A stretch of 64,000 nt of DNA from positions 4,864,001-4,928,000 of the forward strand of contig OZ242296.1 of NCBI GenBank assembly GCA_965207735.1, read 5' to 3'. Source of the DNA: Candidatus Versatilivorator sp. (lineage in GTDB: Bacteria > Acidobacteriota > Terriglobia > Versatilivoradales > Versatilivoraceae). Position numbers and translations under genes: made by a program. Below, one piece after another: positions 9,482 through 64,000 of the stretch (positions within the stretch are counted from its first letter, which is position 1; every line of letters starts with the position of its first letter). Below the pieces are notes generated by a model, which worked only from the letters and a program-made list of their open reading frames with translations, was not told the origin of the DNA and ran no database searches.

Positions 9482-9568
9482 AAATATGAGAGAGATCGAA
9501 GAGAAATCGGACATAGATCCCCCACCAGGCAAAACACTCCAACACATTCGTCGCCAAGGCATTACAGT

Positions 9569-10599
9569 ACCGCTCCAACGTGGCCTTCCAGCACATGGGA
9601 GCTCCCGATGAGGGCCCCATCACCCTGAGAACCACCATCTATTCCGGGGAGGCCGATGACACCAGCTCCCTGGTGGTGGGAGAGGTGGAGCTCCAACCGG
9701 GAGGCTTCCACCAGTACTCGGGATTGCTGGGCAGGCTGGGCAGTCCGGCCCAGGGCTACGTGAAGGTGGAAAAGGTCTCTGGAGAGGCCCCGTTCTACGC
9801 CTACGGGGTCATCAACGACAATTTCAACTCGGACGGCTCCTTCGTCTTTCCTCTCACCGCCTCCTCCCTGGTGGGCACGACGGGTCAGACCCTGCCGGTC
9901 ATCATCGAGACCGGCAACTTCCAGAGCGAGCTGACGGTGACCAACTTCTCAGCCACGGACAAGACTGTGACCTTCAGCTTCGTGGCCGAAGGGGTCAACA
10001 GGGGCGACGACACGGCCACCTTCAGCCTGAGGTTAAAAGCCGGGGAACAGCACATCCTGCCCGGTATCGTGGAGGAACTGCGGCGGCGGGAGGTGGAGGG
10101 GATCGGCCCGGCCAATCGGGCCTATGTGGGAGCGCTGTTCGCCACGCCGGCCGAGGGGGACATGAGCGGCATCGTGATCGGAGCCCGCACGGGGGCTCCC
10201 GACAACAGAGGAGGACAGTACAGCCTCTTCTACAACGGGGTGCCCTATGGCACGGCTTCCGTAGAGAGCGCCTGGATCTACGGGCTGCAGCAGAACGCGG
10301 AGAACCGCAGCAACCTGGCCCTGGTGAATACGGGAGAGATCGACGACACCCCCAGCACCTTCGAGATCACGATTTACGACGGCAGCGGAGAGTCTCGACC
10401 AAGAACGAGGAGTGTGACGCTCGGTCCTCGCCGCTGGACTCAGGAAAACGGGATTCTGGGCAGGATCAGCCAAGGGTACGTTCAGGTGAGGAAGGTCTCG
10501 GGCAACAACCCATTCATCACCTACGGCGTGATCAACGACGGAGGCAGGCCCGGGGAACGCAGTGGAGACGGCGCTTACCTGCCCGCCTGGGAGGAGTAG
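9569..10599 (+). pseudogene. 5'-truncated remnant consisting only of the shared C-terminal surface-protein module
   Basis: Starts mid-domain at RSNVAFQHMG; homologous to 20090-21115 and 63260-64000; no signal peptide or passenger. Confidence 0.8.
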
Positions 10600-14871: not shown

Positions 14872-16800
14872 CCGAAGTTCCTGACCCACCGACAAGATAA
14901 CTCCTTTATCTTCAATCATCAATCAGGAATCTCAGGTTGTCTTGCCTGGGAACATCCTGATGAGCTCGAAGGCCCTTTGCTGTAGCGGGGTCGGCTCGGT
15001 CAATCGCTGGACTCGCGGACCATCGGGTTCGGAGGGCAATCGGCACTGGTGGCGGGCCCGCGTCGCCATCTGCGCCATCAACGTCTCCAGGCTCTGCAGC
15101 GGCAAGCCGTCCTCGGTGAGGCGTTTGCTCTTCTTCCGTTTGGCGGAGTCCGACGGCTGGGCCGCCAGCACCGGGTCTCGCCGTGCCCGTTCCGCTTCCA
15201 ACTCCTCGTCATCGAACAGCAACGGAGCCAGGGCCAGCCGCAGATGCCACTGAACGTAATAGGCCAGCAGGCACAGGAACAGATGAGCCCGCACCCGGCT
15301 CTCCACCCGATGACGGATGGGGCGGATGTGCAGGTCGACGGTCTTGAGGGAGCGGAAGGCCCGCTCCACCCGCGTCAGGTCCTTGTAGCGGCGCACCACC
15401 GCGGCTGTTGGCAGGCGATCGGCTGGCTCGCTGGTCCTCAGCATGTAGAACCCGTCCAGTTGCGCCTCCCGGATGATGGCGTCGGTGCGCCGTTCATAGT
15501 GGAAGGACCCGTCTGCGATCTGGGTCCGGAAGTGTTTGGCCACCTGGAAGCGGTTCTTGACCCGGCCGACTTTCTCGGCGATCTCGGTCGCCGACAAGGG
15601 CGTGCGGGTCCGTCTGGCCACCTGGCGGGCGATTCCGGCCAGCGCCTCCTCGGTGGCTGTCAGCAAAGCCTCCCGCTTCCGCCGCCGATGCTCGGCCAGC
15701 AGCGGGTTGTGGCAGACGATGAGCCTCTCGCCCGGATAGTCCGGGCTGCGGACTTCGGCCAGATGACGCTCGTCGAACAGGGAGAGCTGAACCGCCTCGC
15801 TCTCCACCAGACGGCGTATCTGGTGGTGGCGCAGGGCTGAGACCCACCCCACTCCCGGATGACGCTTCAGATGGCTGATCTGCGTCTCGGTCAGCAGCCC
15901 GCGGTCCCCCACCAGCACCACCCGCTCCAGACCAAACCGACCCCGCACCTTCTCCACCTGATCCCCCACCGTGGTCGGATCCCCCGTGTTGCCGGCATAG
16001 GCCTGCACCGACAGCGGCCGCCCCATCTGGTCGGCCAGCACCCCGTAGACCACCATGGGCCGGTCCCGCCTGCCGTCCCGGTTGTGGCCGAACTGCATCA
16101 GCGAGCAGGTCTGGCCTTCGTAGTAACTGCTGCTGACGTCATAGAGCACCGCATCCCCTTCCGCCAGGTGCCGCTTGGCCAGCTTGCGCTCAATCCGGTC
16201 CTGACGCTCCAGCAACCAGTCCATGGCCTCATAGAGATCGTCCTCGTCGGTGTCCTCAAGGGACAGTTCCTCACCCAACGTGGTGGTGTGCCAAAGACGG
16301 GTGGTGGCCAGCTTGGAGGCCGGATAGAGCAGACGCTGCAGGATCATGGCCAAGACCCGGTCCCGTTGGGGAGAGGGTCGGGAATCGATCAGCGCCGGCA
16401 GCTTCAGCTGCCGCACCACTTCCAGCAGCAACTCGACGTGGCCATGAGGCAGGGAGCGTTCGATGGCGAAGAGTTGGTCGGGATGGACCAGGGGTTCGTT
16501 CTTGAGCACGCGCCGGAGGCGCTCGATCTTGTCCTTGGGCCAATGGGAGAGATTGGCCAGGGTGCGTTTATGGACCTTTTTACCCTCACGGCGGCCTTCG
16601 CGCAGGAGGATGGCAGGGGGAGAGTTGCGGTTGGGGACGGTTTCGACGTACATGGGACTACGATATCACATACAACTATCATGTCAAGATAAATGCTAAT
16701 CATATACATGGGAACAACACTCCACACGCCTCAATCCTCTTCCCCAAGAAAACAAATGGCTTAAGGCGATTTTTTGGGTGTAAAATGGGAGGAACTTCGG
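14872..16800 (-). mobile_element. IS1634-family insertion sequence
   Basis: TIR ccgaagttcct / aggaacttcgg; 6-bp target duplication CCTAAG (14866-14871, 16801-16806). Confidence 0.93.
14932..16653 (-). CDS. IS1634-family DDE transposase
   Basis: LYDVSSSYYEG, FGHNRDG, VGDRGL, VERAFRSLK, RPIRHR. Confidence 0.95.
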   Translation of the reverse strand: MYVETVPNRNSPPAILLREGRREGKKVHKRTLANLSHWPKDKIERLRRVLKNEPLVHPDQLFAIERSLPHGHVELLLEVVRQLKLPALIDSRPSPQRDRVLAMILQRLLYPASKLATTRLWHTTTLGEELSLEDTDEDDLYEAMDWLLERQDRIERKLAKRHLAEGDAVLYDVSSSYYEGQTCSLMQFGHNRDGRRDRPMVVYGVLADQMGRPLSVQAYAGNTGDPTTVGDQVEKVRGRFGLERVVLVGDRGLLTETQISHLKRHPGVGWVSALRHHQIRRLVESEAVQLSLFDERHLAEVRSPDYPGERLIVCHNPLLAEHRRRKREALLTATEEALAGIARQVARRTRTPLSATEIAEKVGRVKNRFQVAKHFRTQIADGSFHYERRTDAIIREAQLDGFYMLRTSEPADRLPTAAVVRRYKDLTRVERAFRSLKTVDLHIRPIRHRVESRVRAHLFLCLLAYYVQWHLRLALAPLLFDDEELEAERARRDPVLAAQPSDSAKRKKSKRLTEDGLPLQSLETLMAQMATRARHQCRLPSEPDGPRVQRLTEPTPLQQRAFELIRMFPGKTT

Positions 16801-16806
16801 CCTAAG

Positions 16807-17203
16807 CAGCCAGTCCTCCGGGGATTTGTTGGCAGACGGCGACTGTCGCAGGTGGACAGGCCGGTACGGCGAGGGAGAAGATGTGGTTCTTGCCATGGCG
16901 CCGGCCCAGCCGGGCCAAACCGTTCCGCCCGGAGCTCAACTGCATTTTCGTGCGTTCGATCTGAAGGGGAACCTGTTTGGTCCTCTGGACAGCCTGGAGG
17001 TCTCCGGGAGACATCAAACGCTCTCTTTCGGAGAGTTCGACCGGCCAACCATCATCGAGATGTGCCTGGATGTTCCGGGCGCCGGCGCCTTTCAACTGGC
17101 CGTTTCCGTTCTTGAAACAAGGACTACGGGCACTCGGGTGCAGTTCTCCACCGGGAGCCTTACCGGAAACCCTGAATCGGAGGACACCGGATCAGGTCCA
17201 TGA
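16807..17203 (+). pseudogene. 3' remainder of the IS-split LRR gene
   Basis: Rejoined frame ELYSLS-SQSSGDLLADGDCRR is in frame with ORF 16826..17203. Confidence 0.88.
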
Positions 17204-20200
17204 ATGTTCGATTCAATGCCAATCATGCGCGGTAAAGCCCACCTGCGGATAGCAACCTGGGCTGTCGCGGTCTTGCTGGCCCTGGTCTGCTCCGGATCTT
17301 ATCGTTCCCAGAACGGCTCACCCAATCTCAGGCCCCATAAGCCCAGAGGCTGGTCGGATGTCATCGTGGTCTCCAACCGGCAAGGAGACAACCTCAACAG
17401 CCGAAGACTGGCGCCTTCCGACATCATTTTTGTGGATTTCGCCGTGATCAACAGCGGCAGTACCCCGGTGACCCGACCCTTCCGTATCGATCTTTTTGTG
17501 GACGGCCAATTGTGGAAGAGCTTCGATGCTCCCTCACCCCTGAACCCTCAAGTCTTTCGTTTTCGCGAGGACTACCCTATCGGAAGACTGGGCGTCGGCA
17601 CACACGCACTACGCATCGTTGCCGATGCCGGCAACCAGGTTGCAGAGAGCGATGAAGACGACAACGAATACACCCGAACCATCATCGTCGCCGGCGATTG
17701 CTTTCCACTGACCACGAGGGTTTCACCCCGGGGGGCCGGGACGCTGGCGCTAAGCCGGGAGCCCAATTGTGGCGAGGCCACGGTCAGCGTCAGCAGTCTG
17801 AGCCTCCTTGAGGAGGGTCAGGACAAGGGACTGGACATCGCCGGGGAGCCTCTTGTCACGGCCCAGCGGGCCAGGGCATTTGACGTCCTGAGAGCCAAAG
17901 TCCGGTCGGAAGACCGCGTCAGAGTAATCGTGGGGGTGAGGACCGCAGTCCGATCTGCCGTCTCGGCTGTGCGTAGCTTAAGGGATGCGACTTCCCGCTC
18001 ACCCCTGATTGCTCGAGCTCAACAGTCGTTGTTGAATCGAATGAACAATCTCGAAGTCTCTTCTGTTCGACGGTTCAAGTTCATTCCCTACGTGGCGATG
18101 GAAGTGGATGAGGCGGCACTGGGGTCACTGGCCGAGGACCCGGAGGTGGTCAGCATCGAGGAGGACCTGTCTGTCAAACCGTTGTTGGCCGACAGTACGC
18201 CACTGATAGGGGCTCCCCATGCCTGGGATCAGGGATACGCCGGTTCGGGCCAGACGATCGCCATCCTGGATACGGGGGTGGACAAGGATCACCCTTTTCT
18301 CCGAGACAAGGTGGTGTCGGAGGCCTGCTATTCGGGTTCCGGAGGGGGAACATCGCTTTGTCCCGAGGGCGTGAACGAATCGGTTCTCCCGGGATCGGGG
18401 GCACCCTGTCCGCCGTCCTTGAGCGACTGCTTTCACGGGACGGCAATGGCCGGGGTCGCCGCCGGCCGGGGGACGGAGTTCTCGGGTGTGGCCCGGGGTG
18501 CCCGGATTATTGCAATCCAGGTGTTCTCGCAGTGCGGCGAGGACTGCATCGATTCATCCAACAGCGATTGGCTTGCCGGTCTGGAGCGGGTGCTCGAGCT
18601 AAGCGCCGATTTCAATATCGCAGCCGTCAACATGAGCTTCGGCGGGGGCTTCTTCTCTGAGGACTGCGACTCCGATTTTCCGGCCGTCAAGGCTGCCATG
18701 GACAATCTGCGCGCGGTCGGGGTCGCACCTATCGCCGCCTCCGGAAACAGCGGTTTCGGCACGGACATCAACAGCCCCGCCTGCGTCTCGAGCGTCGTCA
18801 GCGTGGGATCGACCGATGGTATCGGCGATGAGACACCCCGGGAGGAAGTTTCCGACTTCTCGAACAGCTCGCTTTCTCTGGATCTGCTGGCTCCGGGTCG
18901 AGGGATCACCACGTCGATTCCCGGGGACGATTTCGCCAGTTTCAACGGCACTTCCCTTGCAGTTCCCCATGTTGCCGGCGCCTGGGCGTTGCTTAAATCC
19001 AAGGCTCCCAACGCCACGGTGCCGCAATTGCTTTCCATGCTGTCGCGGACCGGGATTCCCATCACAGACCCTCGAAACGGCCTCGTCAAGCCCCGCATTC
19101 AGGTCGATGCCGCCCTGGATGTCGTAATACCCGAGCTGTCCTATTCCACCGGCACTCGCCTGACGCTGACCCCTGAGCCCGAGCCCGGCTTTCGCTTCAG
19201 GCTCTGGCGCGGATGCGATTCTTCCTCGGGAAACCGATGCGTGGTCGAGATGGATTCCATCCAAAATATCTCAGCTATCTTCGAACCTCTGGGGCCCGCC
19301 CCGGACCTGCTGACGACCTCGCTGACGGCCTCCTCCACGGCCGCTGCCGGCGGCGATGTATCGATCACTGCCCATGTCCACAATCAGGGTTCGGTCGATG
19401 CCGGTCCTTTTCGGCTGGGCGTTTATCTGTCGGCCGACCCTGAAATCACTCACGAAGACATTTGGTTTGCCGCCTGCACCTACGACTCGGGGCTGGTTGC
19501 GGGAGGATCCGAGACCTGCAGCCGGGATTTCCCGATTCCGTTCCGGGTCAGCCCCGGGCGCTACTTTCTGGGGGTCATTGTGGATGATCTGGATCGGGTT
19601 GCCGAGAAGCGTGAGACCAACAACGCCCAAGTGGCCGATTCGGGACCGATCGATGTTCTGGCTCCCAGGATCAGTACGCGGTTATTCGTACCGGTGATCC
19701 TGAACGCGCCCGGGCGCAGGGGCTCTTTCTTTACCTCGGAGCTGACCCTGACCAACCGGGGGACTCAAGAGGCGCGGCTCGACTACACCTACACGGCTCA
19801 TGCCGGAGGAGGAAGCGGAACGGCTTCCGACCGGCTTGCTCCCGGAGAGCAGAAGATCCAGCCCGACGCCCTTGGCTATCTCAAGAATCTGGGCGTTCCC
19901 ATCCCGAGCTCGGGGAATCGGATTGGCACGCTGGCGGTTGAGGGCGTGACTACTTCCGGCGTGGGCATCCTGGTCCGGACCACGACGGAGGTGCCCGAGG
20001 GCCGAGCCGGACTGGCCTACGCGGGGGTTGCCAAGGATGACGGATTCGAGGATGCGGTCTATCTGTGCGGGCTGCGCCAGAACGAAAAGGATCGGTCCAA
20101 CGTGGCCGTTCAGCACATGGGGACAGCCGAAGACGGGCCCATCACCCTGCGGACGTGGGTGCACTCGGGGCTAAATGAGAGTGCGTTCTTGAAAGAGGTG

Positions 20201-21172
20201 ATGCTGGAGCCGGGAGGGTTCCAACAATTTTCAGGAGTCTTGAGCGAGCACAACTATCCCCATGGCTATGTCGAGGTGGCAAGGGCGCGGGGGACCGCCC
20301 CCTTCTATGCCTATGGGGTCATCAACGACCAGGCAAACTCGGACGGCTCGTTCGTCTTTCCGGTCAGGGAAAGCTCTTTGGAGGGGGCTGCACGGCAGAC
20401 TCTTCCGGTGATCGTGGAGATACGGGATTTCACCAGCGAGCTGATGGTGACAAACTTCTCGGAGGAGGAGAAGACCCTCGCTTTCAGCTTTGTGGCCGAC
20501 GGGATCCGAACCCCTGATCGCACGGCCCGCTTCAGCCTGACGATTGGAGCCGGCCGGCAGCGGATAATTCCCGACTTTATCCACACTGAAATGCGGCGGA
20601 AGGGTGTCGAGGGTGTGGGTTCAACTCGAGGCGGACTGGCCGGGGCTCTGTTTGCCACGGTGGAAAGCGGCGATATGGGCGGGATCGTGATCGGGGCCCG
20701 CACCAGCACCTCCGACGACCGTGGCGGCCAGTACGGCCTCTTCTACAACGCGGTGCCCGACGGAGCGGCATTCAACCAGAGTGCCTGGATCGACGGCCTG
20801 CAGCAGGATGCAGAGAACCGGAGCAATCTGGCCCTGGTCAATACCGGGGAGGTCGACGACAGCGACAGCGTCTTCGACCTCGACATCTACGATGGGGACA
20901 CGGGCTTGCTGGTCAGGACGATCACGACCCAACCACTTCCCACTCTGCGCTGGCGCCAGATCAACGCCATTTTGGCCGACCATGCCCCAGGAACCCAACA
21001 GGGCTATGTCCGGGTCCACCAGGTTTCCGGCAACAACCCCTTCCTGGCCTACGGGGTGGTCAACGACGGCGGGGCCCCAGGCGAGCGCAGCGGAGACGGG
21101 GCCTATGTGCCAGCCCACGGCAGGAGGCTGCCTGTACATGTAATCGGGCTTTCAGAGGGCAGGGACAAATGA
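17204..21172 (+). CDS. Secreted S8 subtilase with CARDB-like domains and the shared C-terminal module
   Basis: Triad AILDTG, HGTAMAG, GTSLAVPHVAG; ESDEDDNE and EKRETNN CARDB ends; LFVPVIL...SGDGAYVPA module. Confidence 0.92.
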   Translation: MFDSMPIMRGKAHLRIATWAVAVLLALVCSGSYRSQNGSPNLRPHKPRGWSDVIVVSNRQGDNLNSRRLAPSDIIFVDFAVINSGSTPVTRPFRIDLFVDGQLWKSFDAPSPLNPQVFRFREDYPIGRLGVGTHALRIVADAGNQVAESDEDDNEYTRTIIVAGDCFPLTTRVSPRGAGTLALSREPNCGEATVSVSSLSLLEEGQDKGLDIAGEPLVTAQRARAFDVLRAKVRSEDRVRVIVGVRTAVRSAVSAVRSLRDATSRSPLIARAQQSLLNRMNNLEVSSVRRFKFIPYVAMEVDEAALGSLAEDPEVVSIEEDLSVKPLLADSTPLIGAPHAWDQGYAGSGQTIAILDTGVDKDHPFLRDKVVSEACYSGSGGGTSLCPEGVNESVLPGSGAPCPPSLSDCFHGTAMAGVAAGRGTEFSGVARGARIIAIQVFSQCGEDCIDSSNSDWLAGLERVLELSADFNIAAVNMSFGGGFFSEDCDSDFPAVKAAMDNLRAVGVAPIAASGNSGFGTDINSPACVSSVVSVGSTDGIGDETPREEVSDFSNSSLSLDLLAPGRGITTSIPGDDFASFNGTSLAVPHVAGAWALLKSKAPNATVPQLLSMLSRTGIPITDPRNGLVKPRIQVDAALDVVIPELSYSTGTRLTLTPEPEPGFRFRLWRGCDSSSGNRCVVEMDSIQNISAIFEPLGPAPDLLTTSLTASSTAAAGGDVSITAHVHNQGSVDAGPFRLGVYLSADPEITHEDIWFAACTYDSGLVAGGSETCSRDFPIPFRVSPGRYFLGVIVDDLDRVAEKRETNNAQVADSGPIDVLAPRISTRLFVPVILNAPGRRGSFFTSELTLTNRGTQEARLDYTYTAHAGGGSGTASDRLAPGEQKIQPDALGYLKNLGVPIPSSGNRIGTLAVEGVTTSGVGILVRTTTEVPEGRAGLAYAGVAKDDGFEDAVYLCGLRQNEKDRSNVAVQHMGTAEDGPITLRTWVHSGLNESAFLKEVMLEPGGFQQFSGVLSEHNYPHGYVEVARARGTAPFYAYGVINDQANSDGSFVFPVRESSLEGAARQTLPVIVEIRDFTSELMVTNFSEEEKTLAFSFVADGIRTPDRTARFSLTIGAGRQRIIPDFIHTEMRRKGVEGVGSTRGGLAGALFATVESGDMGGIVIGARTSTSDDRGGQYGLFYNAVPDGAAFNQSAWIDGLQQDAENRSNLALVNTGEVDDSDSVFDLDIYDGDTGLLVRTITTQPLPTLRWRQINAILADHAPGTQQGYVRVHQVSGNNPFLAYGVVNDGGAPGERSGDGAYVPAHGRRLPVHVIGLSEGRDK

Positions 21173-21534
21173 TCCGGAACGCCCTCCCGATACGAAGAGC
21201 TGGCGTGCCTACGCCGCTCTGCAAGTAACCCTTGCAGGCGACGTTTCCGCAGGTGCCCCGCATCCATTGCGGCTTGCCCGCTCTCACCAATAGCGCGACA
21301 CTTCAGGTGGAGGGACCTCCTCTCTTGTGAGGGGCGCGCAAGCAAACCGGTGGCCGGGTGTGTTGTACTCATTGAGGCCTGTGGCCTGAGATTGCGGTGG
21401 GTAGGCGAGGTCAGCGACGTCCCCGGGTCCATTCCTGAAGGCAGTTTCCGACCGCACCAGTCCGGTGGGGCTCGGCGGAGCACTGTGCTATCATTCGACC
21501 TCTTGCTGCAACCCTCCATTTGACGGGAATCCCA

Positions 21535-22803
21535 ATGCCAGAGACCGCGGAGCCGGGGAGCCGGAACGTTTCAGGCGAAAACTCAAGCCGGCTGCGGGCC
21601 GCGCTGAGACTCAAGGATCAGGAAGTCTCCATCCTGCACCAGATCAGCCGTGCGATCAGTGGAATCCTGAATCTGGAAGACGTCCTGCACGAAATCATCG
21701 AACTGGTTTCCGATGTGACCAAGGGCGATTCCTGTCTCTTGTACCTTCTGGACCCGCCCCGGGAAGAACTGGTGCTGCGAGCTTCCAAGAACCCCCACCC
21801 CAGGATCATCGGCCGCATCAAGGTCAAGATTGGGGAGGGAATTACCGGATGGGTGGCCCAGGAACGCCAGCCGGTCGCCATTCAAAAGGACGCCAGCAAC
21901 GATCCGCGGTTCAAGCTGTTCCACAACCTTCCGGAAGACCGGTATCAGGCTTTTCTGTCGGTTCCGGTCATTACCAAGAACGAAGTGATCGGGGTCATCA
22001 ACGTACAGCATCGCCGGCCCCATCGCCACTCCGCCAGCGAGAAGAACCTGTTGATGACCATCGCCAACCAGGTCGGCGCCGCCATCGAAAACGCCCGCCT
22101 TTACGAAGAGGCCCAGCGGAAGGCCCTTCAGTTGGAGACCCTGTCGAACATCAGCAAGACCATCACCTCCCACCACTTTCTGGACGAAATGCTTCAGCTC
22201 ATCGTGGGAATGATGGCCGAGACCATGAACTCCCCCATCTGCTCCATCATGTTGTTGGACGACGAAGGCGAGGAGCTGGAAATCAAGGCCACTCACAGTC
22301 TCAGTCAGGCCTACGCCTCCAAGCCCAACATTTCGGTCCACCGCAGCCTGTTGGGGCGGGTGGTGAAGGGCCGAAAGCCCCTGGTCATCCGCGACGTCAC
22401 CCAGGAGCGGGGCTATGCTTATCGGGAATTGGCTCGCCGGGAAGGGCTCCGCTCCCTGGTCTCCGTGCCGCTGATGATCAAGGATTTCGTGATTGGCGTG
22501 TTCAATCTGTACAGTTCCCAGGAACGGAGTTTTTCCCGCGAGGAAATGCAGCTATTGACCTCGGTGGCCAACCAGGCGGCAGTGGCCATACAGAACGCCA
22601 AGCTCATGAGCGAAACCATCGCCATGAAGGAGGCCCTGGAGACCCGGAAGATCATTGAGCGAGCCAAGGGGATTCTTCTGCAGGAAGAACAGCTGGCCGA
22701 GGCTGAAGCCTACCGCCGCATTCAGCAAAAGAGCATGAAGCTGCGCAAGTCGATGCGGGAGATCTCGGAAGCCATCATCCTGGCCGCCGAAGTCAAGGGT
22801 TGA
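21535..22803 (+). CDS. GAF-GAF-ANTAR RNA-binding regulator
   Basis: Two GAF domains (FLSVPV..VIGVINV; LVSVPL..VIGVFNL) and ALETRKIIERAKGIL...AYRRIQQKSM. Confidence 0.92.
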   Translation: MPETAEPGSRNVSGENSSRLRAALRLKDQEVSILHQISRAISGILNLEDVLHEIIELVSDVTKGDSCLLYLLDPPREELVLRASKNPHPRIIGRIKVKIGEGITGWVAQERQPVAIQKDASNDPRFKLFHNLPEDRYQAFLSVPVITKNEVIGVINVQHRRPHRHSASEKNLLMTIANQVGAAIENARLYEEAQRKALQLETLSNISKTITSHHFLDEMLQLIVGMMAETMNSPICSIMLLDDEGEELEIKATHSLSQAYASKPNISVHRSLLGRVVKGRKPLVIRDVTQERGYAYRELARREGLRSLVSVPLMIKDFVIGVFNLYSSQERSFSREEMQLLTSVANQAAVAIQNAKLMSETIAMKEALETRKIIERAKGILLQEEQLAEAEAYRRIQQKSMKLRKSMREISEAIILAAEVKG

Positions 22804-54829: not shown

Positions 54830-55007
54830 TGAAGATACAGGTGATCCATACGATTGGGACGATTTTCTTTCGGTTTCAACTAAAGATCCAGCAATAACCC
54901 ACGTGGGCGACGTGTGCAGCTTTGTTGCAATCCGAAGATTGATACACGGACTCCATCCGTCAGACTTTCCGAACGGCTTCGCTTGGCGCGCTGGATGGTG
55001 TGACACC

Positions 55008-58000
55008 ATGCGCCGCAAGCATCACCGGTGCCATTCGGGGTGCTTCACCCGTCTTGCAAGCCTTGCTCGATCCCTGACTGCCCACTCGGCGGCGGGACTG
55101 CTGCTGACGCTCGCTACGCTGCCAGTGATCACGTCGGCGCAGGGCAACCCGCAATCGGTCACCTACCGGGTGACCTTTGAAGCCAAATTCACCGCAAGTG
55201 CCCTTGCCAGCGGGGTATCGGTCCCGTCTGGTGCGCATTTCACGACCTTGATCGGCGCCGTGCACAACGGAAGCGCCACTTTCTGGAGCGATGGAGGTAC
55301 GGCCAGCGCAGGGATCGAGAGCATGGCGGAAGTTGGGGGAACGAGCGCCCTCAAGTCCGAGATCAACGCCGCCGGCTCGAATGCTCTCGCCGTCATCGAG
55401 CAGTCCATCGCATCGGGCGGGACAGCCACGGCTACGGTAGACATCACGCTCACCACAGACCATCCTCTGGTCACCCTGACCTCGATGGTCGCCCCCAGCC
55501 CGGACTGGTTCGTCGGTGTCTCGGGGCTGTCCCTGCGCAATACGGCCGATGACGGCTGGCAGCCGACCCTCACGGTGAACCTGTTTCCCTGGGACGCCGG
55601 GACCGAGGAGGGAACCGAGTTCTCTTTGTCGAACTCCGCGACCTCGCCGCAGGGAACCATCACCAGCATCAAGGGAATGGGCAAGTTTTCAGACGAACCG
55701 ATCGCAACGCTTACTTTCGATCTCCTGTCGGCGCCGGAGATCACGACGACCTCACCGATTCTCGTATCGGAAAACGAGACGGCGGTAGCCACGCTCACTG
55801 CAGACGACAGCGACACGACCGCAGGGGAGCTGATCTGGTCGAAGACGGGCGGAGCCGACTCGGACAAGTTTTCACTCACTGAGGCCGGCGTCCTCACCTT
55901 CAGTTCGGCCAAGGACTACGAGGCCCCGGACGACGCCGACACGGACCGCACCTACGAAGTGACCGTGCAGGTGAGCGACGGGACCGATTCGGACATGGCG
56001 GAGTTGCTCGTGACGCTCCAGAACGTCACCGAGCTCACGGCGATCACCGGGCCGGAGAGCGTCACCTTCCCGGAGAACAGTTGGTCGCGGGCGGCGACCT
56101 TCACGGCGTCCTCGGAGGAGGACCGGGCCGGCATCGAGTGGATCCTCGGCGGGACCGACAGTGACCACTTCAGCATCGACAACCCGGCCGGCGCGCTGCG
56201 GTTCGCCCTCGACGAGGTCTCCCCGCGGATCTTCTCCGAGCCGCCCGACTTTGAGGCGCCGGTCGACGGCGACGCGGCCAACACCTACGAGCTGACGCTG
56301 TTCGGGAGAGCCGGCACGTCCGTTACGGACACGCGGACCTTGACGGTGACCGTTACCGACGAGGACGAGGAAGGGGAGTTGTCGCTGTCTTCGACCCTTC
56401 CCGCGCTGGGGGCCGAGCTGACCGCCGACCTCAGCGACCCGGACGGCGTGACCGACTCGACGGCGGTCTGGCAGTGGGAGCGGTCGACGGGCCGCAACTC
56501 CTGGGCCGTGATCGACGGCGCCGATGCGGCGAGCTACACGCCGGTGGCGGCGGACGCGAACACGTTTCTGCGGGTGACGGCGACCTACGATGACGAGCAC
56601 GGGACCGGCAAGACGGTCAGCGAGGTGGCGCCCAACGTGGTCACGGGGCCCCTGTTGACGGGTCTGACGGCGGAGACCGGCAACTCCCAGGCCGACACCG
56701 CGCGGGGCCTGTATCCGGCCTTCGACGCGCAGACGCTTCACTACGGCATCGGGTGCAACGGCACCGACACGATGGTCCTGACCGTGTCGGCGCCGGCGAA
56801 CGCGCGCGTGGCGGTGGACGGCGTGCAGGCCGGAAGCGCGCCCATGTCAGTGGACGTGTCCGAGGATAGCGACGTGGCGATCCGCGTGACCGAGGCGAGC
56901 GGCGCCGCCACGGCCTACGTCGTGCACTGCCTGGCGAACGTGTTCTTCGAAATCGAGATGCACACGTTCCCGGGCACTGACGCGTTCGAGGATCTGATCC
57001 TGCTCAACCGCGGGGGCTACTTCAGACTGATGGACCGTAACGGGGTGCCGCGATTCCGCCGCGCCTACTCGACTCTGGGACCGTTCGCCATCAGGTTCTA
57101 CCGGATCGGTGCCGACGGTGCGTACCGCTACGGGTTCTACCTGGATTCCGCCTACACCATCCTCGACGAGAACTTCGAGGTCGTTGCCGGCGGCGTGAGT
57201 GTCGTGGCGCCGTTGACCGTGTTGGGCTACCACGACTTCCAGATTCTGGAGGACGGCAACTACCTGCTCATGACATTCGAACCGGCGACGCGCGACTTCA
57301 GAGACATCGATCTGCCGCCTCCCGCCGATTCGACTGTTGATCTCTCCGCCGTCAGCGTCCGGGACTCGGCGTTCCAGATCGTCACGCCGGGGGGGGAAGC
57401 CGCATTCACCTGGAACTCCTGGGGCAACATAGCCATCGAGGATTGCGTGTCACACTACTTCCCCGTGACTCTCTCCACCGATCCCGATGCGAGGAGTCCC
57501 CGAACAAGCTACTCGCATATCAACGGGATGCACGTGGTTGACGGCGTCCTCGCCGCCTCGCTGCGGGGTTGCTCGAAGGTGTTGGCCATAGACGTGGAAC
57601 CCGGCGCTACGCGAGGAGACGTGCTGTGGCGGATGGGCCGCACCAACCTGAGCGACGCGGAATGGGCGGCGCGCGACATCGGCCCGCGGCCGCTGGACTT
57701 CGTCAACGATCCCGAAGGCGAGTTCTGCGGCCAGCACACGGCGCGCTTCCTGCCCAGCGGCAACGTCTTCCTCTTCGACAACGGCGTAGAGTGCGTGATC
57801 GACCCGTGGACGTTCGAGGAGTTGGGCCGCGAAGGGAACGACTTCAGCCGCGCGGTGGAGTACGCGCTCGACCTCGACAACCACGAGGCGGTCTTCGTGC
57901 GCGATCACTCCCTGCGGGGCGAGCGGGCCCACGTTGGCTACGCCACCGGCAACGTCAATGCGCTCGACAACGGCGACTGGCTGGTGAGCTGGGGCCGGGT

Positions 58001-61000
58001 TCTCGACGAGAATGACCGCTTTCCGGACAACGAGATGGCCACGCTGGTCGATCCCGCCACCGGTCAGGAGAAGCTGGGCATCCGCTTCAGGGAGTTGCCC
58101 GCCCTTGCGAGTGCGCGCCGCATCAGCCCGAGCGTGGCCCCGGCCGAAGCCCTGGCACCGCAACCCGTCCCCCTTGCGGCGGAGTTCCCGGTCAGCGACC
58201 ACACCTCGCTTCTCCATACGGGCGCTGGGGACGCGCCGCAGGTGGTCGTCGCCTTCAACCGGCCCGTGGTGGACTTCGACGAGACCTCCCCGTCGCTGAG
58301 CGTCACAGGCGCCACGATTGCAAGCGTCAGCCCACACCGAGTGGCCGGTGAGGCGGCCAACGCCTATGTTGTCACCCTGACGCCCGCCGGCGCCGGCGAC
58401 ATCACCTTCGGCCTGGTGGCCGATCAGACCTGCGCCGGTGACGGCATCTGCACGGCCGACGGCGCCGAGGTCTCGGAAGTGCCCGCATCACAGGTCATCC
58501 GTGCGGATACGACTCCCCCGGAGGTGAGCAGGAACGAGGTCAGCTCGAACCCGGGGACGGACCGGACGTATGCGGCGGGAGACCGGATTCGGGTGACGGT
58601 GACCTTCAGCGAGACGGTGGAGGTGACGGGGATGCCGCAGTTGAGGCTGGAGGTGGGAGGAGGGACGCGAACGGCGACCTATGAAGGCGGCTCGGGAACG
58701 GCGGCTCTGGTGTTCGGCCACACAGTCGCTGGGGGGGAAAGCGGCACGGACGGAGTGGGGGTTGAGGCCGACAGCCTGTCGCTGAACGGAGGGATGATCC
58801 GGGACGTTGCGGGCAATGACGCGGTGCTGGACCATGAGGCGGTGGCTGCCAACGCGAGTCACAAGGTGGACGGGGTCAAGCCGCGCCTGGCCTCGACCGG
58901 CGGAGCGGTGGTCGATGGGACGATGCTGACGCTGACCTACGACGAGCCGCTCGACCGGAGCTCAACGCCCGATGCGGGAGACTTCACGGTGTCGGGAGGC
59001 GATCAGACCCGGACGGTCACCCGGGTTTCAGTGAGCGGAAGCGCGGTGGCGCTGACCCTGAGTGTGGGAGCCGAGCACGAGGAGGTGGGGATCCAGGTGA
59101 GCTACACGCCTGGGACAAACAAGATCCGGGACGTGCCCGGCAACGAAGCGGAGGCGCTCAGCCGCCAAGCGGTGACGAACGAAACGCCCGACACGACCGC
59201 TCCAGAGGTAAGCAGTCTGTCCATCAGTTCGAACCCGGAAGCTGACGAGACTTATGCAGCAGGGGACGAGATCGAGGTGACGGTGACCTTCAACGAGACG
59301 GTGAAGGTGACGGGGACGCCGCAGTTGACGCTGAGAGTCGGGAACCGGAACCGGCCGGCCGGCTACGACAGAGGTACGGATACGGAGGCGCTGGTGTTTG
59401 CCTATGAGGTAGCCGATGGCGACGAAGACACTGACGGGGTCAGTGTGCAGGCAAACCGACTGAGGCTCAACGGAGGGACCATCAAGGACGAGGCGGAGAA
59501 TGCGGCGGAGCTGGCTCACGAGGCGGCAGCGGCCGACACGGGGCACCAGGTGGACGGGGTGCGGCCGGCGTTTGTGAGCGCGGCGGTGGACGGGGCCTCG
59601 CTGACGCTGACTTACCGGGAGGCGCTGGATGGGGGGTCGAGGCCCGCGTCGGGGGACTTCGCGGTGACGGTGGATGGGTCTGCGAGAACGGTTTCCGGAG
59701 TGTCGATCGGCGGGAGCGTGGTGACGCTGACCCTCGACACGGCGGTCGAGCACGGGGATACGGGGATTTGGGTGAGCTACACAGCGGGGACCAACCCGAT
59801 TCAGGACGAGGTGGGCAATGACGCAGCGGGGTTGAGCAACCGGTCGGTGACCAACACGACGGGAGCGCCGAACACGGATCCGGAGATCACGAGTTCGAGT
59901 GCGATTAGTGTTCCGGAGAACCAGGTGCTGGTGAGGCGGTTGGCAGGAAGGGACACCGACCTGGGGGACGAGGTGACGGAATGGGCGATCACGGGCGGGG
60001 CCGACCAGGGGCAGTTCGAGATCACCTCGGATATGGGAGAGCTGAGCTTCCGGGATCCTCCGGATTTCGAAGCTCCCGGAGACAACGAGTACGAGGTAAC
60101 GGTGGAAGCGACCAGCGGAGCGGGCGGAAGGGAGCTGACGGTGGAGAAGACCTTCACGATCACGGTGACGGATGAGCGGGAACCTCCTGGCGTTCCGGAC
60201 GCACCCACGTTTTCGGGGGAGACGGCAAACAGCCTGACGGTGAGCTGGAGCGAGCCGGACAACACCGGCCCTCCCATCACCGACTATGACGTGCAGTACC
60301 GGGAAAAGGACAGGGGGGGCTTCCGAGACGGAGGCCACGAGGGGCCGGGTCTCAGCTTGACGCTTTCCGACCTCGAGCCGGGGACGGACTACGAGGTGCA
60401 GATCAAGGCCAGAAACGACGAGGGGGCGAGCGACTGGTCGGCCTCGGGCGAGGGGATGACCGTGACGCCGCTGACGGTCGTGATGACGAGCGGGACCGAG
60501 CCTCCGGTGTCGGGTTCGTTTATGGTGAGAATCAGCTTCTCTGAGCCGGTGTCGGGGTTCAGCGGGAGCGACATCGAATCCGACCAGGATCCTGAGTGCA
60601 CGGACGATCTGAACAATGCGGTGTTCTGCGATCCGGGGATCGGGGCTCTGCAGACGGCCGACGACCGGGTCTACACCACCACGGTGACGCCGGAGACCAG
60701 CGGTGTGGCCCACAGCTACGCGTTGACGCTGACACTTCCGGCAGACGCAGTGAGGTCGTCGGTAGACAGCAAGCCCAACGAGGAACCCGAGGAGCCGCTG
60801 GCGGTGCGGGTGTCGCCGCCGGGGGCGCCCGAGGCGATTTCAACTTTGAGTCCGGAAGCCAATGGGGCAAACGGATCGGTGAGGTTGAGCTGGAACCGGC
60901 CGTCGGATAACGGAGGCTCTCCGATCATCCGCTACGAGTACCGGCACGCGGCTACCGGGGAGGCGTGGAGCGAGTGGGGAAGCGTGGGAGCGGGGTCGAG

Positions 61001-64000
61001 CGGGGTGACGGTGGGAGGCCTGATCAACGGCCGGGAGTATGTCTTCGAGGTGCGGGCGGTCAATGCTTTGGGGAAAGGGGGAGTGGAGACGGCGATGGTG
61101 ACACCTGAGCAAGGGGTAACGCGGCCCGGCACCGGCACCGGCGGCGGCGGCGGAGGAGGCGGCCTGCTGTTTGCGCCGGAGGCGCCGGCAGCCCTGACGG
61201 CGACACCCGGGGACGGGGCGGTGCGGTTGGCGTGGAGCCCGCCGGAAAGCGACGGGGGCGCCGAGATCCTGCGCTATGAGTACCGCCTCAAAGAAGGCCT
61301 GGGCGAGTTCGGCGAGTGGACACCCATCCCGGACAGCGCCCCCGGGGAGGTCAACGCCTCCGGCTACACCCTCATGGGGCTTCTCAACGGGACGGTCTAT
61401 GCCTTGGAGCTGCGTGGGGTCAACCAGATCGGCAACGGGCGGGAGACGGAGGCGGTGGAGGCGGTGATGCCTCTGGACCCGGCCTATCGGTCGAACTTCC
61501 GGGCGGAGGACCTGGAGGGTGGAGAGGCCGGATTGGAGTGGACGCCGTTTGGAGGAAGCCGGCGGAGTCTGAAGGTGAGGTTTGGAGGGGGGCTGCGGTT
61601 CGAGGAGAGGGAGCTGGATGCAGCGGGGGAAGTGACGGCGACCCGCATGGGGAGCTACCGGTACCGCTACACCAGCCGGACGACGGGAGAGCTGAGCCTG
61701 GACTACGACGGGGGGGAGACGTGCCAGCTGGGGATGAGCTTCAGCGGAGTGGGAGCAGGCAGCTACAGCTACCGCTGCGGGGGCGCGTTGCAGGGACAGG
61801 GGAGCTTCCGGCTGAGCGAGCTGAACCGGCTGCCGGAGATCACGAGCACAGGTCCGTTGGAGGTGGCGGAGAACCAGAAAAAGGTAGTGCGGCTGGAGGC
61901 GGTGGACTCCGACGAGGGGGACGAGGTTGCCGGCTACGAAGTCACGGGAGGAGCGGACGGGGCGCTGTTTAGGGTAGTTGAGCAGACGGGAGAGCTGAGC
62001 TTCACGGAGGCGCCGGACTATGAGAGGCCTGCCGATGCGGTGAGCGCGGAGCCCGAAAGCCCTGCAGCAGACAACGAATACGTGGTGGTGGTGGAGGCGA
62101 GGAGCGGGGAGGGAGAGAGGGAACGGAGGAGGCAGAGGGCCATACGGGTGCGGGTGAGTGACGAGGAGGAGCCACCGGGGGCGCCGCCGGCTCCGGAGGT
62201 GAGAGCGGAGGGCACGGACAGCCTGAAGGTGAGCTGGTCCGAGCCTGAGAACTGTGGGCCTGAGATCACCGGCTATGAGGTGCGCTACCGGGAGGAGGGA
62301 GAGGAAGGCTACCGGGATGGGGGACACGAGGGGACGGGACTGACGTTGACGCTGACGGGCCTGGAGGAGGAGAGGCTCTACCGGGTGGAGGTGAGGGCCA
62401 TGAACGAAGAGGGGAGGGGTGAGTGGTCGCAGCCGGGGGAAGGCAGGACGGGGATGGAGGAGCCCGACGCAGAGGATCCGGCGGACTTCAGCGAGGAGGA
62501 CCTGGAGGGGAGGCGGGCGACCTTGAGGATCACGGGCGAAGAGGGGACCGCCAGACGCATTGAACTGCGGTTTGCAGAAGGCAACCGATTCGAGCAGATC
62601 GAGAGGGTGGAAGCGCAGGCGGCGATTCGGTCGGAGAGCGCCGAATCCCGATCGGAGAGCACCACCTCGCGATCGGGCAGCTACGCCTATGAGAGGACAG
62701 GTCCGGGCAGGGGGACGGTGAGGCTCGACTACGATGACGGGGCCTCCTGCGAGCTTCGTTTGAGCTTCACCGAGTCGGGAGTGGGCGGGTACCTCTACGA
62801 CTGCGGGGAAGGGGAGGTGGCCGAGGGGAGCTTCCGGCTGACGACGGGGTCGCTGTTCGTTCCGGTGATCCTGTCCTCGGCGGGGCGGAACAACTCGTTT
62901 TTCACCTCGGAGCTGACGCTGACCAACCGGGGGATGGAAGAGGCCACGCTCCACTACATCTACACGGCGGATGCAGGCGGGGGAAGCGGCACGGCCACCG
63001 ACCGGCTCGACGCAGGTCGGCAGAAGATCGAGACCGACGCCCTGGACTATCTGAGGGGTCTGGGGGTACCGATTCCCGCAACCGGGAACCGGATCGGGAC
63101 ATTGAGGGTGGAGGTCAAGCTGGGCTCCGAGGTGGAGGCGGTGGTGCGGACCACCACGCTGGTGCCAGAGGGGAGGGCGGGGCTGGCCTACCCGGGGGTG
63201 GCCGAGGGAGAGGGCTTTGAGGAGCCGGTCTACCTGTGCGGGCTCAGGCAGAACAGCCAGGACCGCTCCAACGTGGCCTTCCAGAACATGGGGACTTCAG
63301 AAGAGGGTGCCATCACTCTGAGGACCACGGTCTACTCGGGAGAAGCGGCGGATACGACGGCCCGGGAGCTGGACGATGTAACGCTGGAGCCGGGAGGGTT
63401 TCACCAGTACTCGGGGCTGCTGGGCAGTGTGGAGAACGGCTACGTGAAGGTGGAACGTGTGGAGGGAGAGGCGCCCTTCTACGCCTATGGGGTGATCAAT
63501 GACCAGGAGAACTCGGACGGGTCGTTCGTCTTTCCGGTGACGGCAGGTTCGCTGGAGGGGAAGGTGGCGCAGACCTTGCCGGTGATCGTGGAGACGAGCG
63601 AGTTCACCAGCGAGTTGACGGTGACGAACTTCTCCGAGGAGCCCAGGAGGCTGGATTTCGAGTTTGTGGGCGAGCAAGTCAAAGCCGACGACAGGACGGC
63701 TGCTTTCAGCATGGTGCTGGAAGGGGGCGAGCAGGCGATCGTGCCCGAGGTGGTGGAGGAGTTGCGGCGCCAGGGAGTGGCGGGGTTGGGGGCGACGCGG
63801 GGGTTCTACGCGGGGCCGTTGTTCGTCACGGCCGAAGAGGGAGACCTGAGCGGGGTGGTGATCGGAGCCAGGACGGGTTCGAAGGGAGGGGGGGGATCCT
63901 ACAGCGTCTTCTACAACGCGGTGCCGCAGGGTGAGGGTTTCACCGAGGAGGCCTGGGTGGAGGGATTGCAGCAGAACCAGGAGAACCGCAGCAACCTGGC
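55008..64000 (+). CDS. Giant secreted multidomain adhesin (Spondin_N, cadherin-like, arylsulfotransferase-like, Ig/SwmB-like, FN3, shared C-terminal module); 3' end outside the window
   Basis: Hand translation: signal peptide, HFTTLIGAVH, SMVAPSPDWFVGV, WDAGTEEG; DYEAPDD cadherin; HDFQILEDGNY, HING, GQHTAR..LFDNG; FN3 repeats; LFVPVIL at 62853 in the same frame. Absence from the ORF track is consistent with no stop before 64000. Confidence 0.9.
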   Translation, partial: MRRKHHRCHSGCFTRLASLARSLTAHSAAGLLLTLATLPVITSAQGNPQSVTYRVTFEAKFTASALASGVSVPSGAHFTTLIGAVHNGSATFWSDGGTASAGIESMAEVGGTSALKSEINAAGSNALAVIEQSIASGGTATATVDITLTTDHPLVTLTSMVAPSPDWFVGVSGLSLRNTADDGWQPTLTVNLFPWDAGTEEGTEFSLSNSATSPQGTITSIKGMGKFSDEPIATLTFDLLSAPEITTTSPILVSENETAVATLTADDSDTTAGELIWSKTGGADSDKFSLTEAGVLTFSSAKDYEAPDDADTDRTYEVTVQVSDGTDSDMAELLVTLQNVTELTAITGPESVTFPENSWSRAATFTASSEEDRAGIEWILGGTDSDHFSIDNPAGALRFALDEVSPRIFSEPPDFEAPVDGDAANTYELTLFGRAGTSVTDTRTLTVTVTDEDEEGELSLSSTLPALGAELTADLSDPDGVTDSTAVWQWERSTGRNSWAVIDGADAASYTPVAADANTFLRVTATYDDEHGTGKTVSEVAPNVVTGPLLTGLTAETGNSQADTARGLYPAFDAQTLHYGIGCNGTDTMVLTVSAPANARVAVDGVQAGSAPMSVDVSEDSDVAIRVTEASGAATAYVVHCLANVFFEIEMHTFPGTDAFEDLILLNRGGYFRLMDRNGVPRFRRAYSTLGPFAIRFYRIGADGAYRYGFYLDSAYTILDENFEVVAGGVSVVAPLTVLGYHDFQILEDGNYLLMTFEPATRDFRDIDLPPPADSTVDLSAVSVRDSAFQIVTPGGEAAFTWNSWGNIAIEDCVSHYFPVTLSTDPDARSPRTSYSHINGMHVVDGVLAASLRGCSKVLAIDVEPGATRGDVLWRMGRTNLSDAEWAARDIGPRPLDFVNDPEGEFCGQHTARFLPSGNVFLFDNGVECVIDPWTFEELGREGNDFSRAVEYALDLDNHEAVFVRDHSLRGERAHVGYATGNVNALDNGDWLVSWGRVLDENDRFPDNEMATLVDPATGQEKLGIRFRELPALASARRISPSVAPAEALAPQPVPLAAEFPVSDHTSLLHTGAGDAPQVVVAFNRPVVDFDETSPSLSVTGATIASVSPHRVAGEAANAYVVTLTPAGAGDITFGLVADQTCAGDGICTADGAEVSEVPASQVIRADTTPPEVSRNEVSSNPGTDRTYAAGDRIRVTVTFSETVEVTGMPQLRLEVGGGTRTATYEGGSGTAALVFGHTVAGGESGTDGVGVEADSLSLNGGMIRDVAGNDAVLDHEAVAANASHKVDGVKPRLASTGGAVVDGTMLTLTYDEPLDRSSTPDAGDFTVSGGDQTRTVTRVSVSGSAVALTLSVGAEHEEVGIQVSYTPGTNKIRDVPGNEAEALSRQAVTNETPDTTAPEVSSLSISSNPEADETYAAGDEIEVTVTFNETVKVTGTPQLTLRVGNRNRPAGYDRGTDTEALVFAYEVADGDEDTDGVSVQANRLRLNGGTIKDEAENAAELAHEAAAADTGHQVDGVRPAFVSAAVDGASLTLTYREALDGGSRPASGDFAVTVDGSARTVSGVSIGGSVVTLTLDTAVEHGDTGIWVSYTAGTNPIQDEVGNDAAGLSNRSVTNTTGAPNTDPEITSSSAISVPENQVLVRRLAGRDTDLGDEVTEWAITGGADQGQFEITSDMGELSFRDPPDFEAPGDNEYEVTVEATSGAGGRELTVEKTFTITVTDEREPPGVPDAPTFSGETANSLTVSWSEPDNTGPPITDYDVQYREKDRGGFRDGGHEGPGLSLTLSDLEPGTDYEVQIKARNDEGASDWSASGEGMTVTPLTVVMTSGTEPPVSGSFMVRISFSEPVSGFSGSDIESDQDPECTDDLNNAVFCDPGIGALQTADDRVYTTTVTPETSGVAHSYALTLTLPADAVRSSVDSKPNEEPEEPLAVRVSPPGAPEAISTLSPEANGANGSVRLSWNRPSDNGGSPIIRYEYRHAATGEAWSEWGSVGAGSSGVTVGGLINGREYVFEVRAVNALGKGGVETAMVTPEQGVTRPGTGTGGGGGGGGLLFAPEAPAALTATPGDGAVRLAWSPPESDGGAEILRYEYRLKEGLGEFGEWTPIPDSAPGEVNASGYTLMGLLNGTVYALELRGVNQIGNGRETEAVEAVMPLDPAYRSNFRAEDLEGGEAGLEWTPFGGSRRSLKVRFGGGLRFEERELDAAGEVTATRMGSYRYRYTSRTTGELSLDYDGGETCQLGMSFSGVGAGSYSYRCGGALQGQGSFRLSELNRLPEITSTGPLEVAENQKKVVRLEAVDSDEGDEVAGYEVTGGADGALFRVVEQTGELSFTEAPDYERPADAVSAEPESPAADNEYVVVVEARSGEGERERRRQRAIRVRVSDEEEPPGAPPAPEVRAEGTDSLKVSWSEPENCGPEITGYEVRYREEGEEGYRDGGHEGTGLTLTLTGLEEERLYRVEVRAMNEEGRGEWSQPGEGRTGMEEPDAEDPADFSEEDLEGRRATLRITGEEGTARRIELRFAEGNRFEQIERVEAQAAIRSESAESRSESTTSRSGSYAYERTGPGRGTVRLDYDDGASCELRLSFTESGVGGYLYDCGEGEVAEGSFRLTTGSLFVPVILSSAGRNNSFFTSELTLTNRGMEEATLHYIYTADAGGGSGTATDRLDAGRQKIETDALDYLRGLGVPIPATGNRIGTLRVEVKLGSEVEAVVRTTTLVPEGRAGLAYPGVAEGEGFEEPVYLCGLRQNSQDRSNVAFQNMGTSEEGAITLRTTVYSGEAADTTARELDDVTLEPGGFHQYSGLLGSVENGYVKVERVEGEAPFYAYGVINDQENSDGSFVFPVTAGSLEGKVAQTLPVIVETSEFTSELTVTNFSEEPRRLDFEFVGEQVKADDRTAAFSMVLEGGEQAIVPEVVEELRRQGVAGLGATRGFYAGPLFVTAEEGDLSGVVIGARTGSKGGGGSYSVFYNAVPQGEGFTEEAWVEGLQQNQENRSNL

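What the first reader, a model, noticed from the sequence alone, without database searches (positions are those of the whole stretch)
19682..21115. Shared ~480-aa C-terminal module on unrelated secreted proteins: possible undescribed sorting or anchoring system
Seen: the module LFVPVIL..GR..SFFTSELTLTNRG...RSNVAxQxMG...YGVIND..NSDGSF / TLPVI.E...FTSEL.VTNFS...RSNLALVNTG...YGV.NDGG.PGERSGDGAY.PA ends the subtilase. It also forms the last visible part of the giant adhesin (62853-64000+) and survives as an orphan at 9569-10599. It is internally duplicated and similar at DNA level between copies, while the passengers differ completely. It has no terminal Phe (autotransporter), LPXTG, PEP-CTERM or recognisable T9SS CTD. 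Inference: a lineage-specific surface-display or S-layer-docking domain that also offers homology for passenger swapping.
Basis: partly seen in the sequence, partly recalled or inferred. Interest (0 to 1): 0.72.

Follow-up and report, generated by a model that had tools for sequence, protein, structure and literature searches.

The report
Shared four-sandwich anchor on secreted proteins
Thirty-six predicted secreted proteins of this uncultured bacterium end in the same 480-residue block, predicted to fold as four small sandwiches like a family thought to bind sugars, which likely ties them to the cell's own sugar coat rather than serving as an export label.

Summary
A 478-residue module (19682-21115) ends the subtilase and the giant adhesin, and survives as a truncated remnant at 9568-10599. 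The genome has 40 matching frames (36 full), behind LRR, NHL, fn3/cadherin, protease and sulfatase passengers. All 31 genomes searched in the family (relatives named Ca. Versatilivoraceae) carry it. No Pfam, NCBIfam or PDB sequence match was found. AlphaFold gives four eight-stranded sandwiches (A-B-A'-B'); both types match TM1070/ASRT (Z 11.9 and 11.0), and a distant relative passes Pfam's ASRT cut-off. It is an uncatalogued branch of the ASRAH superfamily, for which sugar binding is predicted, not shown. It is not a C-terminal sorting signal: it follows the signal peptide in 9 of 84 copies in close relatives, and PorV, sortase and exosortase were not found. One copy sits in a family-wide operon behind a TonB-dependent transporter, but other module-rich genomes lack that transporter. 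The module is exchanged between paralogs as a DNA unit. Best reading: a non-covalent surface anchor, with export probably by type II secretion (inferred, about 0.5). This scan noted the same or related modules before in other genomes.

The parts
17204..21172 (+). Secreted subtilase gene, 1322 aa: signal-peptide-like start, CARDB, Peptidase_S8 (347-616), CARDB (700-808), module, 18-aa tail
19682..21115 (+). The 478-aa module, four ASRAH-like beta-sandwiches A-B-A'-B'
19682..20026 (+). Domain 1 (type A); matches TM1070 1NC7 at Z 11.9, rmsd 3.6, 108 aligned
20027..20365 (+). Domain 2 (type B); matches TM1070 at Z 11.0, rmsd 2.7, 103 aligned; holds R138 and D221, invariant in 33 divergent half-modules
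20381..20752 (+). Domain 3 (type A')
20753..21115 (+). Domain 4 (type B')
9568..10599 (+). Orphan remnant: module positions ~138-480, no passenger or signal peptide; 92% DNA identity to its closest paralog; begins where synteny with a relative breaks (left edge of a ~12-kb insertion)
54903..64000 (+). Giant surface protein (spondin, SWM, cadherin, fn3 domains); the frame continues to window-equivalent 64292
62853..64000 (+). Module copy at the C-terminus of the giant protein (cut by the window end)

Best explanation
The module is a block of four ASRAH-type beta-sandwich domains (predicted fold) carried by 36 predicted secreted proteins of this genome, and it likely binds a sugar polymer of the cell's own surface, so that it would hold proteases, LRR/NHL repeat proteins and giant adhesins on the cell, as SLH or CWB2 repeats do in Gram-positive bacteria. 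Shown: the module, its copy number, its placement at either end of proteins, the passenger families and the exchange of module DNA between paralogs. Predicted: the fold, and that the four domains pack as a pseudo-tetramer like the TM1070 tetramer (pTM 0.88). [quoted passage not shown] New passengers would gain display by fusion to the module; gene conversion would keep copies alike.
For: Fold: both domain types have TM1070 and ASRT as top two matches among 48,161 chains, TM1070 about 4-5 Z above the first unrelated row; Foldseek E 4.8e-5 for domain 2. Relative P0415 carries two half-modules (E ~1e-40), one holding a PF07100 match over the cut-off (26.3 vs 25 bits). PMC2739507 (parts 1-2 of 3 read) predicts sugar binding and reports secreted members as dyads or tetrads, in Chloroflexi amidases and actinobacterial lipoproteins. 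Either-end placement: of the best 150 cluster representatives 123 C-terminal, 22 N-terminal (17 intact by my reading), 4 internal, 1 nearly alone; 75 C and 9 N among 84 distinct full copies in loci L032-L105. SLH repeats are likewise N- or C-terminal (PMC8559796, passages). Passengers are extracellular types with unrelated substrates (30 of 34 scanned have Pfam families, none cytoplasmic), which fits a shared tether better than a substrate-specific module. No other anchor was seen: no lipobox by pattern in 36 of 36 and no long hydrophobic stretch past residue 120 in 34 of 36. Purifying selection: dN/dS median 0.31 over 629 pairs. A type II secretion cluster is present.
Against: No ligand has been shown for any ASRAH domain beyond ethanediol in a TM1070 crystal (PMC2739507), and a shared fold shows no function. 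Sequence similarity of the window's module to ASRT is weak (hhalign probability 3-9%; score 21.5 against a shuffled maximum of 19.4 for type B), so the Arg-for-His mapping rests on a low-confidence alignment. No glycan-synthesis gene recurs next to module genes in 40 loci of distant relatives. The invariant R138/D221 pair could be structural. Signal peptides were judged only by a hydrophobicity rule (23 of 36 pass; several of the rest are broken genes). The strong C-terminal bias (36 of 36 here) is also what an export signal would give.
Confidence: 0.5

Rival explanations
1. The module is a carbohydrate-binding targeting domain for external polymers (host matrix, biofilm or soil polysaccharide), so released proteins stick to the surroundings, not to the producing cell.
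For: Same fold evidence. More matches per genome in the window's genus (11-51, median 21, n=14) than in other genera of the family (2-19, median 9, n=17) (matches are not copy numbers). A relative's contigs lie in a run labelled sponge metagenome.
Against: Present in 31 of 31 family genomes and in distant families with other passengers, so it is older than the genus's lifestyle. It is kept on 3,000-4,800-aa stalked adhesins, which usually need a cell-side anchor (general knowledge).
Confidence: 0.2
2. [quoted passage not shown]
For: 36 of 36 full copies here are C-terminal. One copy lies directly behind an Oar-like transporter (PF25183) in an ECF sigma/anti-sigma operon: 19 of 21 loci examined, one miss at a contig end and one a 46% paralog; also L119 and L128. 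The ortholog was found in 30 of 31 family genomes. Myxococcus Oar is needed to secrete the subtilase PopC (PMC6434023, passages).
Against: No ortholog with this query in G016, G119, G175, G257 (full tetrads, 97-99% complete) or G239. Module genes are no closer to such transporters than chance in G000 (1 of 40 within 1 kb, 1.2 expected). The operon is one inherited event. None of 18 more distant transporter loci has a module gene. N-terminal and internal placement. The superfamily occurs in actinobacterial lipoproteins (PMC2739507).
Confidence: 0.15
3. The module docks on a protein (an S-layer lattice or an outer-membrane receptor), or builds a lattice itself.
For: High conservation over 480 residues (mean column identity 65%); a compact four-domain model (pTM 0.88); the TM1070 fold oligomerises (PMC2739507); the conserved transporter operon offers a candidate receptor.
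Against: No stand-alone module protein, which an abundant lattice subunit might be, was found in G000; no partner gene tracks with the module outside the family.
Confidence: 0.12

Closest known systems
ASRAH superfamily (TM1070, PDB 1NC7; ASRT, PDB 2II7; Pfam PF07100; De Souza, Iyer, Aravind 2009, PMC2739507)
   Same: Eight-stranded sandwich, Asn at the end of strand 2, occurrence as dyads or tetrads in secreted proteins, transitive Pfam match.
   Different: None of the paper's three families: not solo and cytoplasmic, not amidase-fused, not a lipoprotein. The SHE..C..N signature is replaced. The species list in the one supplement held names no Acidobacteria by the three terms searched. Up to dozens of copies per genome on unrelated passengers.
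SLH and CWB2 cell-wall anchoring repeats (PMC8559796, passages)
   Same: Tandem repeats at either end of many secreted proteins; proposed working principle (non-covalent glycan tether).
   Different: Those are mostly alpha-helical triads of Gram-positive bacteria with proven ligands; this is an all-beta tetrad in a diderm with no proven ligand.
Type IX secretion C-terminal domain
   Same: Shared beta-rich tail on many unrelated signal-peptide proteins.
   Different: 480 residues against about 80 (recalled); not restricted to the C-terminus; PorV not found in the 100%-complete genome.
TIGR03437 Soli_cterm (Solibacter C-terminal domain)
   Same: Lineage-specific C-terminal domain on many large acidobacterial proteins (description recalled).
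   Different: No match to the module; the genome's only hit lies in another frame.
DUF5719 (PF18986)
   Same: Nearest named clusters in the ESM Atlas (0.94).
   Different: No significant HMM match (best E 0.12 among 33 half-modules).

Membership tests
ASRAH superfamily | Eight-stranded beta-sandwich with TM1070 topology | tested here: met
   Eight strands in each of four domains; Z 11.9/rmsd 3.6/108 aligned and Z 11.0/rmsd 2.7/103 aligned to 1NC7. Predicted models; D3 and D4 by homology.
ASRAH superfamily | Nearly invariant Asn at the end of strand 2 | tested here: met
   N25 and N258 invariant in 36 of 36, N387 in at least 90%; domain 2 consensus Asn, but His145 in this copy.
ASRAH superfamily | Conserved Trp at the start of strand 1 | tested here: inconclusive
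   Invariant W369 (D4) and F2 (D1), Tyr in D2, Leu in D3; in a low-probability alignment the ASRT Trp falls two places off.
ASRAH superfamily | Secreted members occur as dyads or tetrads | tested here: met
   A-B-A'-B' here; 31 single and 27 double half-modules among 58 distant relatives; A and B homologous (94.7%).
ASRAH superfamily | Sugar or small-molecule binding (predicted in the paper) | not testable with these tools
   Needs binding assays.
ASRT-like solo family (PF07100) | Stand-alone cytoplasmic domain with SHEshChhN signature; Pfam cut-off | tested here: not met
   No PF07100 match in the window or G000; R138/A142 and T18/T22 stand in the His/Cys places. A distant relative does pass the cut-off.
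ASRAH amidase-fused family (Chloroflexi) | Fusion to N-acetylmuramoyl-L-alanine amidase | tested here: not met
   No amidase among 34 passengers scanned and the two window proteins.
ASRAH actinobacterial lipoprotein family / DUF5719 | Lipobox and PF18986 match | tested here: not met
   No lipobox by pattern in 36; best PF18986 E 0.12.
Type IX secretion CTD | Strictly C-terminal; PorV machinery | tested here: not met
   N-terminal and internal copies; PorV not found, control rang in Bacteroides.
Sortase / exosortase substrates | C-terminal motif, hydrophobic segment, charged tail; cognate enzyme | tested here: not met
   No such tail; PF04203 and PF09721 not found in G000, controls rang.
Autotransporter | C-terminal beta-barrel (PF03797) ending in an aromatic residue | tested here: not met
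   Model is four sandwiches; typical end is PARE; the two weak PF03797 hits lie in other frames.
SLH / CWB2 anchors | Alpha-helical triad repeats | tested here: not met
   All-beta model, no Pfam match. This lowers membership only, not the 'works like' claim.
SLH / CWB2 anchors | Binding to the cell's own envelope polysaccharide | not testable with these tools
   Needs binding assays.

The most novel reading that the evidence does not exclude
This is a widespread glycan-anchoring domain of diderm bacteria, the Gram-negative counterpart of SLH/CWB2 that a 2021 review says is not known. It is a pseudo-tetramer of ASRAH sandwiches that Acidobacteriota use as a universal surface tether, and Ca. 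Versatilivorator has expanded and shuffled it to display dozens of host-interaction (LRR, NHL, cadherin, spondin) proteins and proteases, with one ancestral copy wired to an ECF-controlled TonB-dependent transporter.
Probability: 0.35. Interest if true: 0.75.

Novelty: new variant of a known kind. Interest (0 to 1): 0.5.

Why it matters
How Gram-negative bacteria keep large secreted proteins on their surface without lipid, barrel or sortase anchors is poorly understood; the S-layer review read here says they hold no widespread anchoring domains (PMC8559796, passage). A 480-residue domain present in 31 of 31 genomes of one family, with relatives in 30 of 301 phylum genomes sampled, would fill that gap and give the first testable ligand for the ASRAH superfamily. 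It is also a marker for surface proteins in uncultured symbionts: the profile lists 36 candidates in this genome. The function remains inferred, and the scan has already noted the family elsewhere, so the gain here is detail, not discovery.

Tried and rejected
Pfam, NCBIfam and PDB sequence searches of the module: no match. Foldseek with the whole four-domain model gave only low-TM multi-domain hits (TM 0.09-0.17); single-domain searches solved this. ESM Atlas: nearest clusters unnamed, recognition score 1871, below the tool's mark. Search for more divergent paralogs in G000 with domain profiles from the genome's own copies: none; the broader half-module profile was scored on only 9 candidates there. 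Neighbourhood search in 40 loci of distant relatives: only generic families recurred. The TonB-dependent transporter as obligatory translocon was rejected; such transporters number 50 or more in some family genomes. Homodimer prediction of the module: no verdict, score 0.00, no evidence either way. Sequencing runs: no RNA holder listed. A PHI-like recombination test was only marginal (p about 0.04). Literature searches: 'ASRAH / sensory rhodopsin transducer / TM1070', 'Versatilivorator' (0 papers), 'DUF5719 / PF18986 / ASRT domain / PF07100 / DUF1362', and four searches of context terms found no description of this module; the library omits most subscription journals, and bioRxiv supplements were not looked at. 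Hits in MAG contigs titled Acidimicrobiia (3 loci, one contig) and Latescibacterota (1 locus) were not taken as range outside the phylum, because misbinning was not excluded.
Full report
1. Observation. The subtilase gene at 17204-21172 (1322 aa) has a hydrophobic leader, CARDB and Peptidase_S8 domains and then, from residue 827, a stretch with no Pfam or NCBIfam match. This stretch runs from 19682 to 21115 (478 aa) and is followed by 18 residues. The same module starts at 62853 in the giant protein and ends at its stop just past the window. A third copy at 9568-10599 lacks the first ~137 residues. The three copies are 68-71% identical in DNA.

2. Genome-wide picture. Among 45,771 stop-to-stop frames of G000, 40 match the module: 36 full and 4 fragments, all at the end of their frame. 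Of 34 passengers scanned, 30 have Pfam families at E 1e-8 or better: LRR (8), NHL/teneurin (9), reprolysin (4), trypsin (2), collagenase M9, subtilase, sulfatase, glucose/sorbosone dehydrogenase, spondin, fn3, cadherin, SBBP. None is a cytoplasmic type. A crude hydrophobicity rule finds a signal-like segment in 23 of 36; several others are downstream parts of broken genes or have leaders just outside the rule. That such repeat proteins are typical of sponge symbionts is recalled, not tested.

3. Range. Named relatives are titled Ca. Versatilivorator, Ca. Versatilivoraceae, Terriglobia or Acidobacteriota (lineage). The profile matches 31 of 31 family genomes and 0 of 12 genomes of other families of the class. 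In 301 genomes drawn from the phylum, the narrow profile matches 9 and a profile of 33 divergent half-modules matches 30 (this tally includes G000 and G052, which is flagged unpublished). Relatives there carry one or two half-modules, mostly C-terminal (55 of 58), and some are named Thermoanaerobaculum or Thermoanaerobaculia. The window's module alone finds 1,485 clusters at 50% identity with E up to 0.001.

4. Position. In G000 it is always C-terminal, but of the best 150 representatives 22 carry it near the N-terminus and 4 internally; 17 of the 22 look intact, with leader, module and further domains. In loci of close relatives, 9 of 84 distinct full copies follow the signal peptide and precede LRR-type sequence. 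A classical C-terminal sorting signal does not behave so.

5. Structure. AlphaFold2 (36 sequences) gives mean pLDDT 89 and pTM 0.88, with four domains of eight strands each. Profile comparison pairs D1 with D3 and D2 with D4 and, with deeper alignments, type A with type B (94.7%). Domain 1 matches TM1070 (Z 11.9) and ASRT (Z 8.4) ahead of all else. A separate model of domain 2 (pLDDT 95) gives Z 11.0 and 8.0 and Foldseek E 4.8e-5. Direct sequence similarity to ASRT is weak, but P0415, a clear relative, passes the PF07100 cut-off within its half-module. The ASRAH paper (PMC2739507; I read parts 1 and 2 of 3 and searched its one supplement) predicts sugar binding from a cleft lined by His25 and Cys29 and notes dyads and tetrads in secreted members. 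In the weak alignment, the invariant R138 takes the His place. The lead to this superfamily came from an earlier scan note before my fold searches.

6. Is there a machine? G000 encodes three secretins, one in a cluster with pseudopilin-like genes and a GspG match, that is a type II secretion system. PorV, exosortase and sortase were not found. One lead was followed in depth. The most divergent copy (G000 2713006-2709260, DUF7948/SBBP passenger) lies 111 bases behind an Oar-like TonB-dependent transporter, itself behind ECF sigma and anti-sigma genes. This order holds in 19 of 21 loci examined, and the transporter was found in 30 of 31 family genomes. Oar of Myxococcus is required to secrete a subtilase (PMC6434023, passages). 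Against a general role: no ortholog with this query in four genomes with full tetrads, no enrichment of transporters near the other module genes, and no module behind 18 more distant transporters. I read it as one ancestral operon, not as the system's translocon.

7. DNA exchange. Module copies average 69% DNA identity (52-99%). A spondin giant and a sulfatase share a 1,180-base identical tract, and nearest neighbours change along the module. Six genes with collagenase, trypsin and two kinds of LRR passengers share 82-91% identity that starts within 12 bases of the module's first codon and ends near its stop (14 of 15 pairs listed), with dN/dS 0.22. The giants share their stalks as well. This shows the module moves or is homogenised as a unit; gene conversion suffices, so true passenger swapping is likely but not proven.

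8. Local context. Window 9568 to about 21380 is an insertion: relatives join the flanks directly, and the orphan starts at that junction. The LRR gene and the subtilase gene are neighbours elsewhere in G005 and G006.

9. Verdict. The feature is real, common and uncurated, and it is a branch of a described but functionally untested superfamily. The most likely job is non-covalent tethering to the cell's own glycan (0.5), ahead of binding external glycans (0.2), export recognition (0.15) and protein docking (0.12). Nine earlier scan notes from other genomes reach a similar reading for this or related modules; they are not independent evidence. New here are the family-wide census, the either-end count in one genus, the transporter operon and its limits, and the cassette-like DNA exchange.

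Noticed in passing
window 10982-14884 and 16807-17115 (+): The LRR gene ends in a second, different ~270-aa C-terminal module (4 copies in G000; only weakly like the main module, hhalign 5-9%). It is split by an insertion sequence; the gene is intact in G005 and G006.
   Followed up: partly
window 14872-16800: Insertion sequence with a DDE transposase (14932-16653, -), 10-base inverted ends and a 6-base target duplication CCTAAG; at least 15 further near-identical copies in G000. The family label IS1634 is recalled.
   Followed up: partly
L149:5258-14655 (-) (G000 2709258-2718655): Single-copy operon ECF sigma, RskA-like anti-sigma, Oar-like TonB-dependent transporter, DUF7948/SBBP protein with the module; conserved across nearly all family genomes examined.
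   Followed up: yes
L026:2389-2697 (+) (G000 4098888-4099196): A collapsed module: its first residues are joined directly to its last 30, an apparent internal deletion between short similar sequences.
   Followed up: no
L026:6658-8151 (+): This copy has a 14-residue tandem duplication in domain 2.
   Followed up: no
window ~8435-9060 (+): Small antitoxin-like gene and PIN-domain gene just left of the insertion; variable among relatives. The antitoxin call is by eye.
   Followed up: no
P0264: A ~170-residue insert with a proprotein convertase P-domain sits between domains 1 and 2 of the module, so the tetrad tolerates insertions.
   Followed up: no
window 21520-22803 (+): GAF-GAF-ANTAR regulator directly right of the insertion.
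   Followed up: no
L002, L010, L011, L014, L025, L026: Several module genes are broken by stops, frameshifts or insertions upstream of the module, pointing to fast turnover; assembly errors were not excluded.
   Followed up: partly
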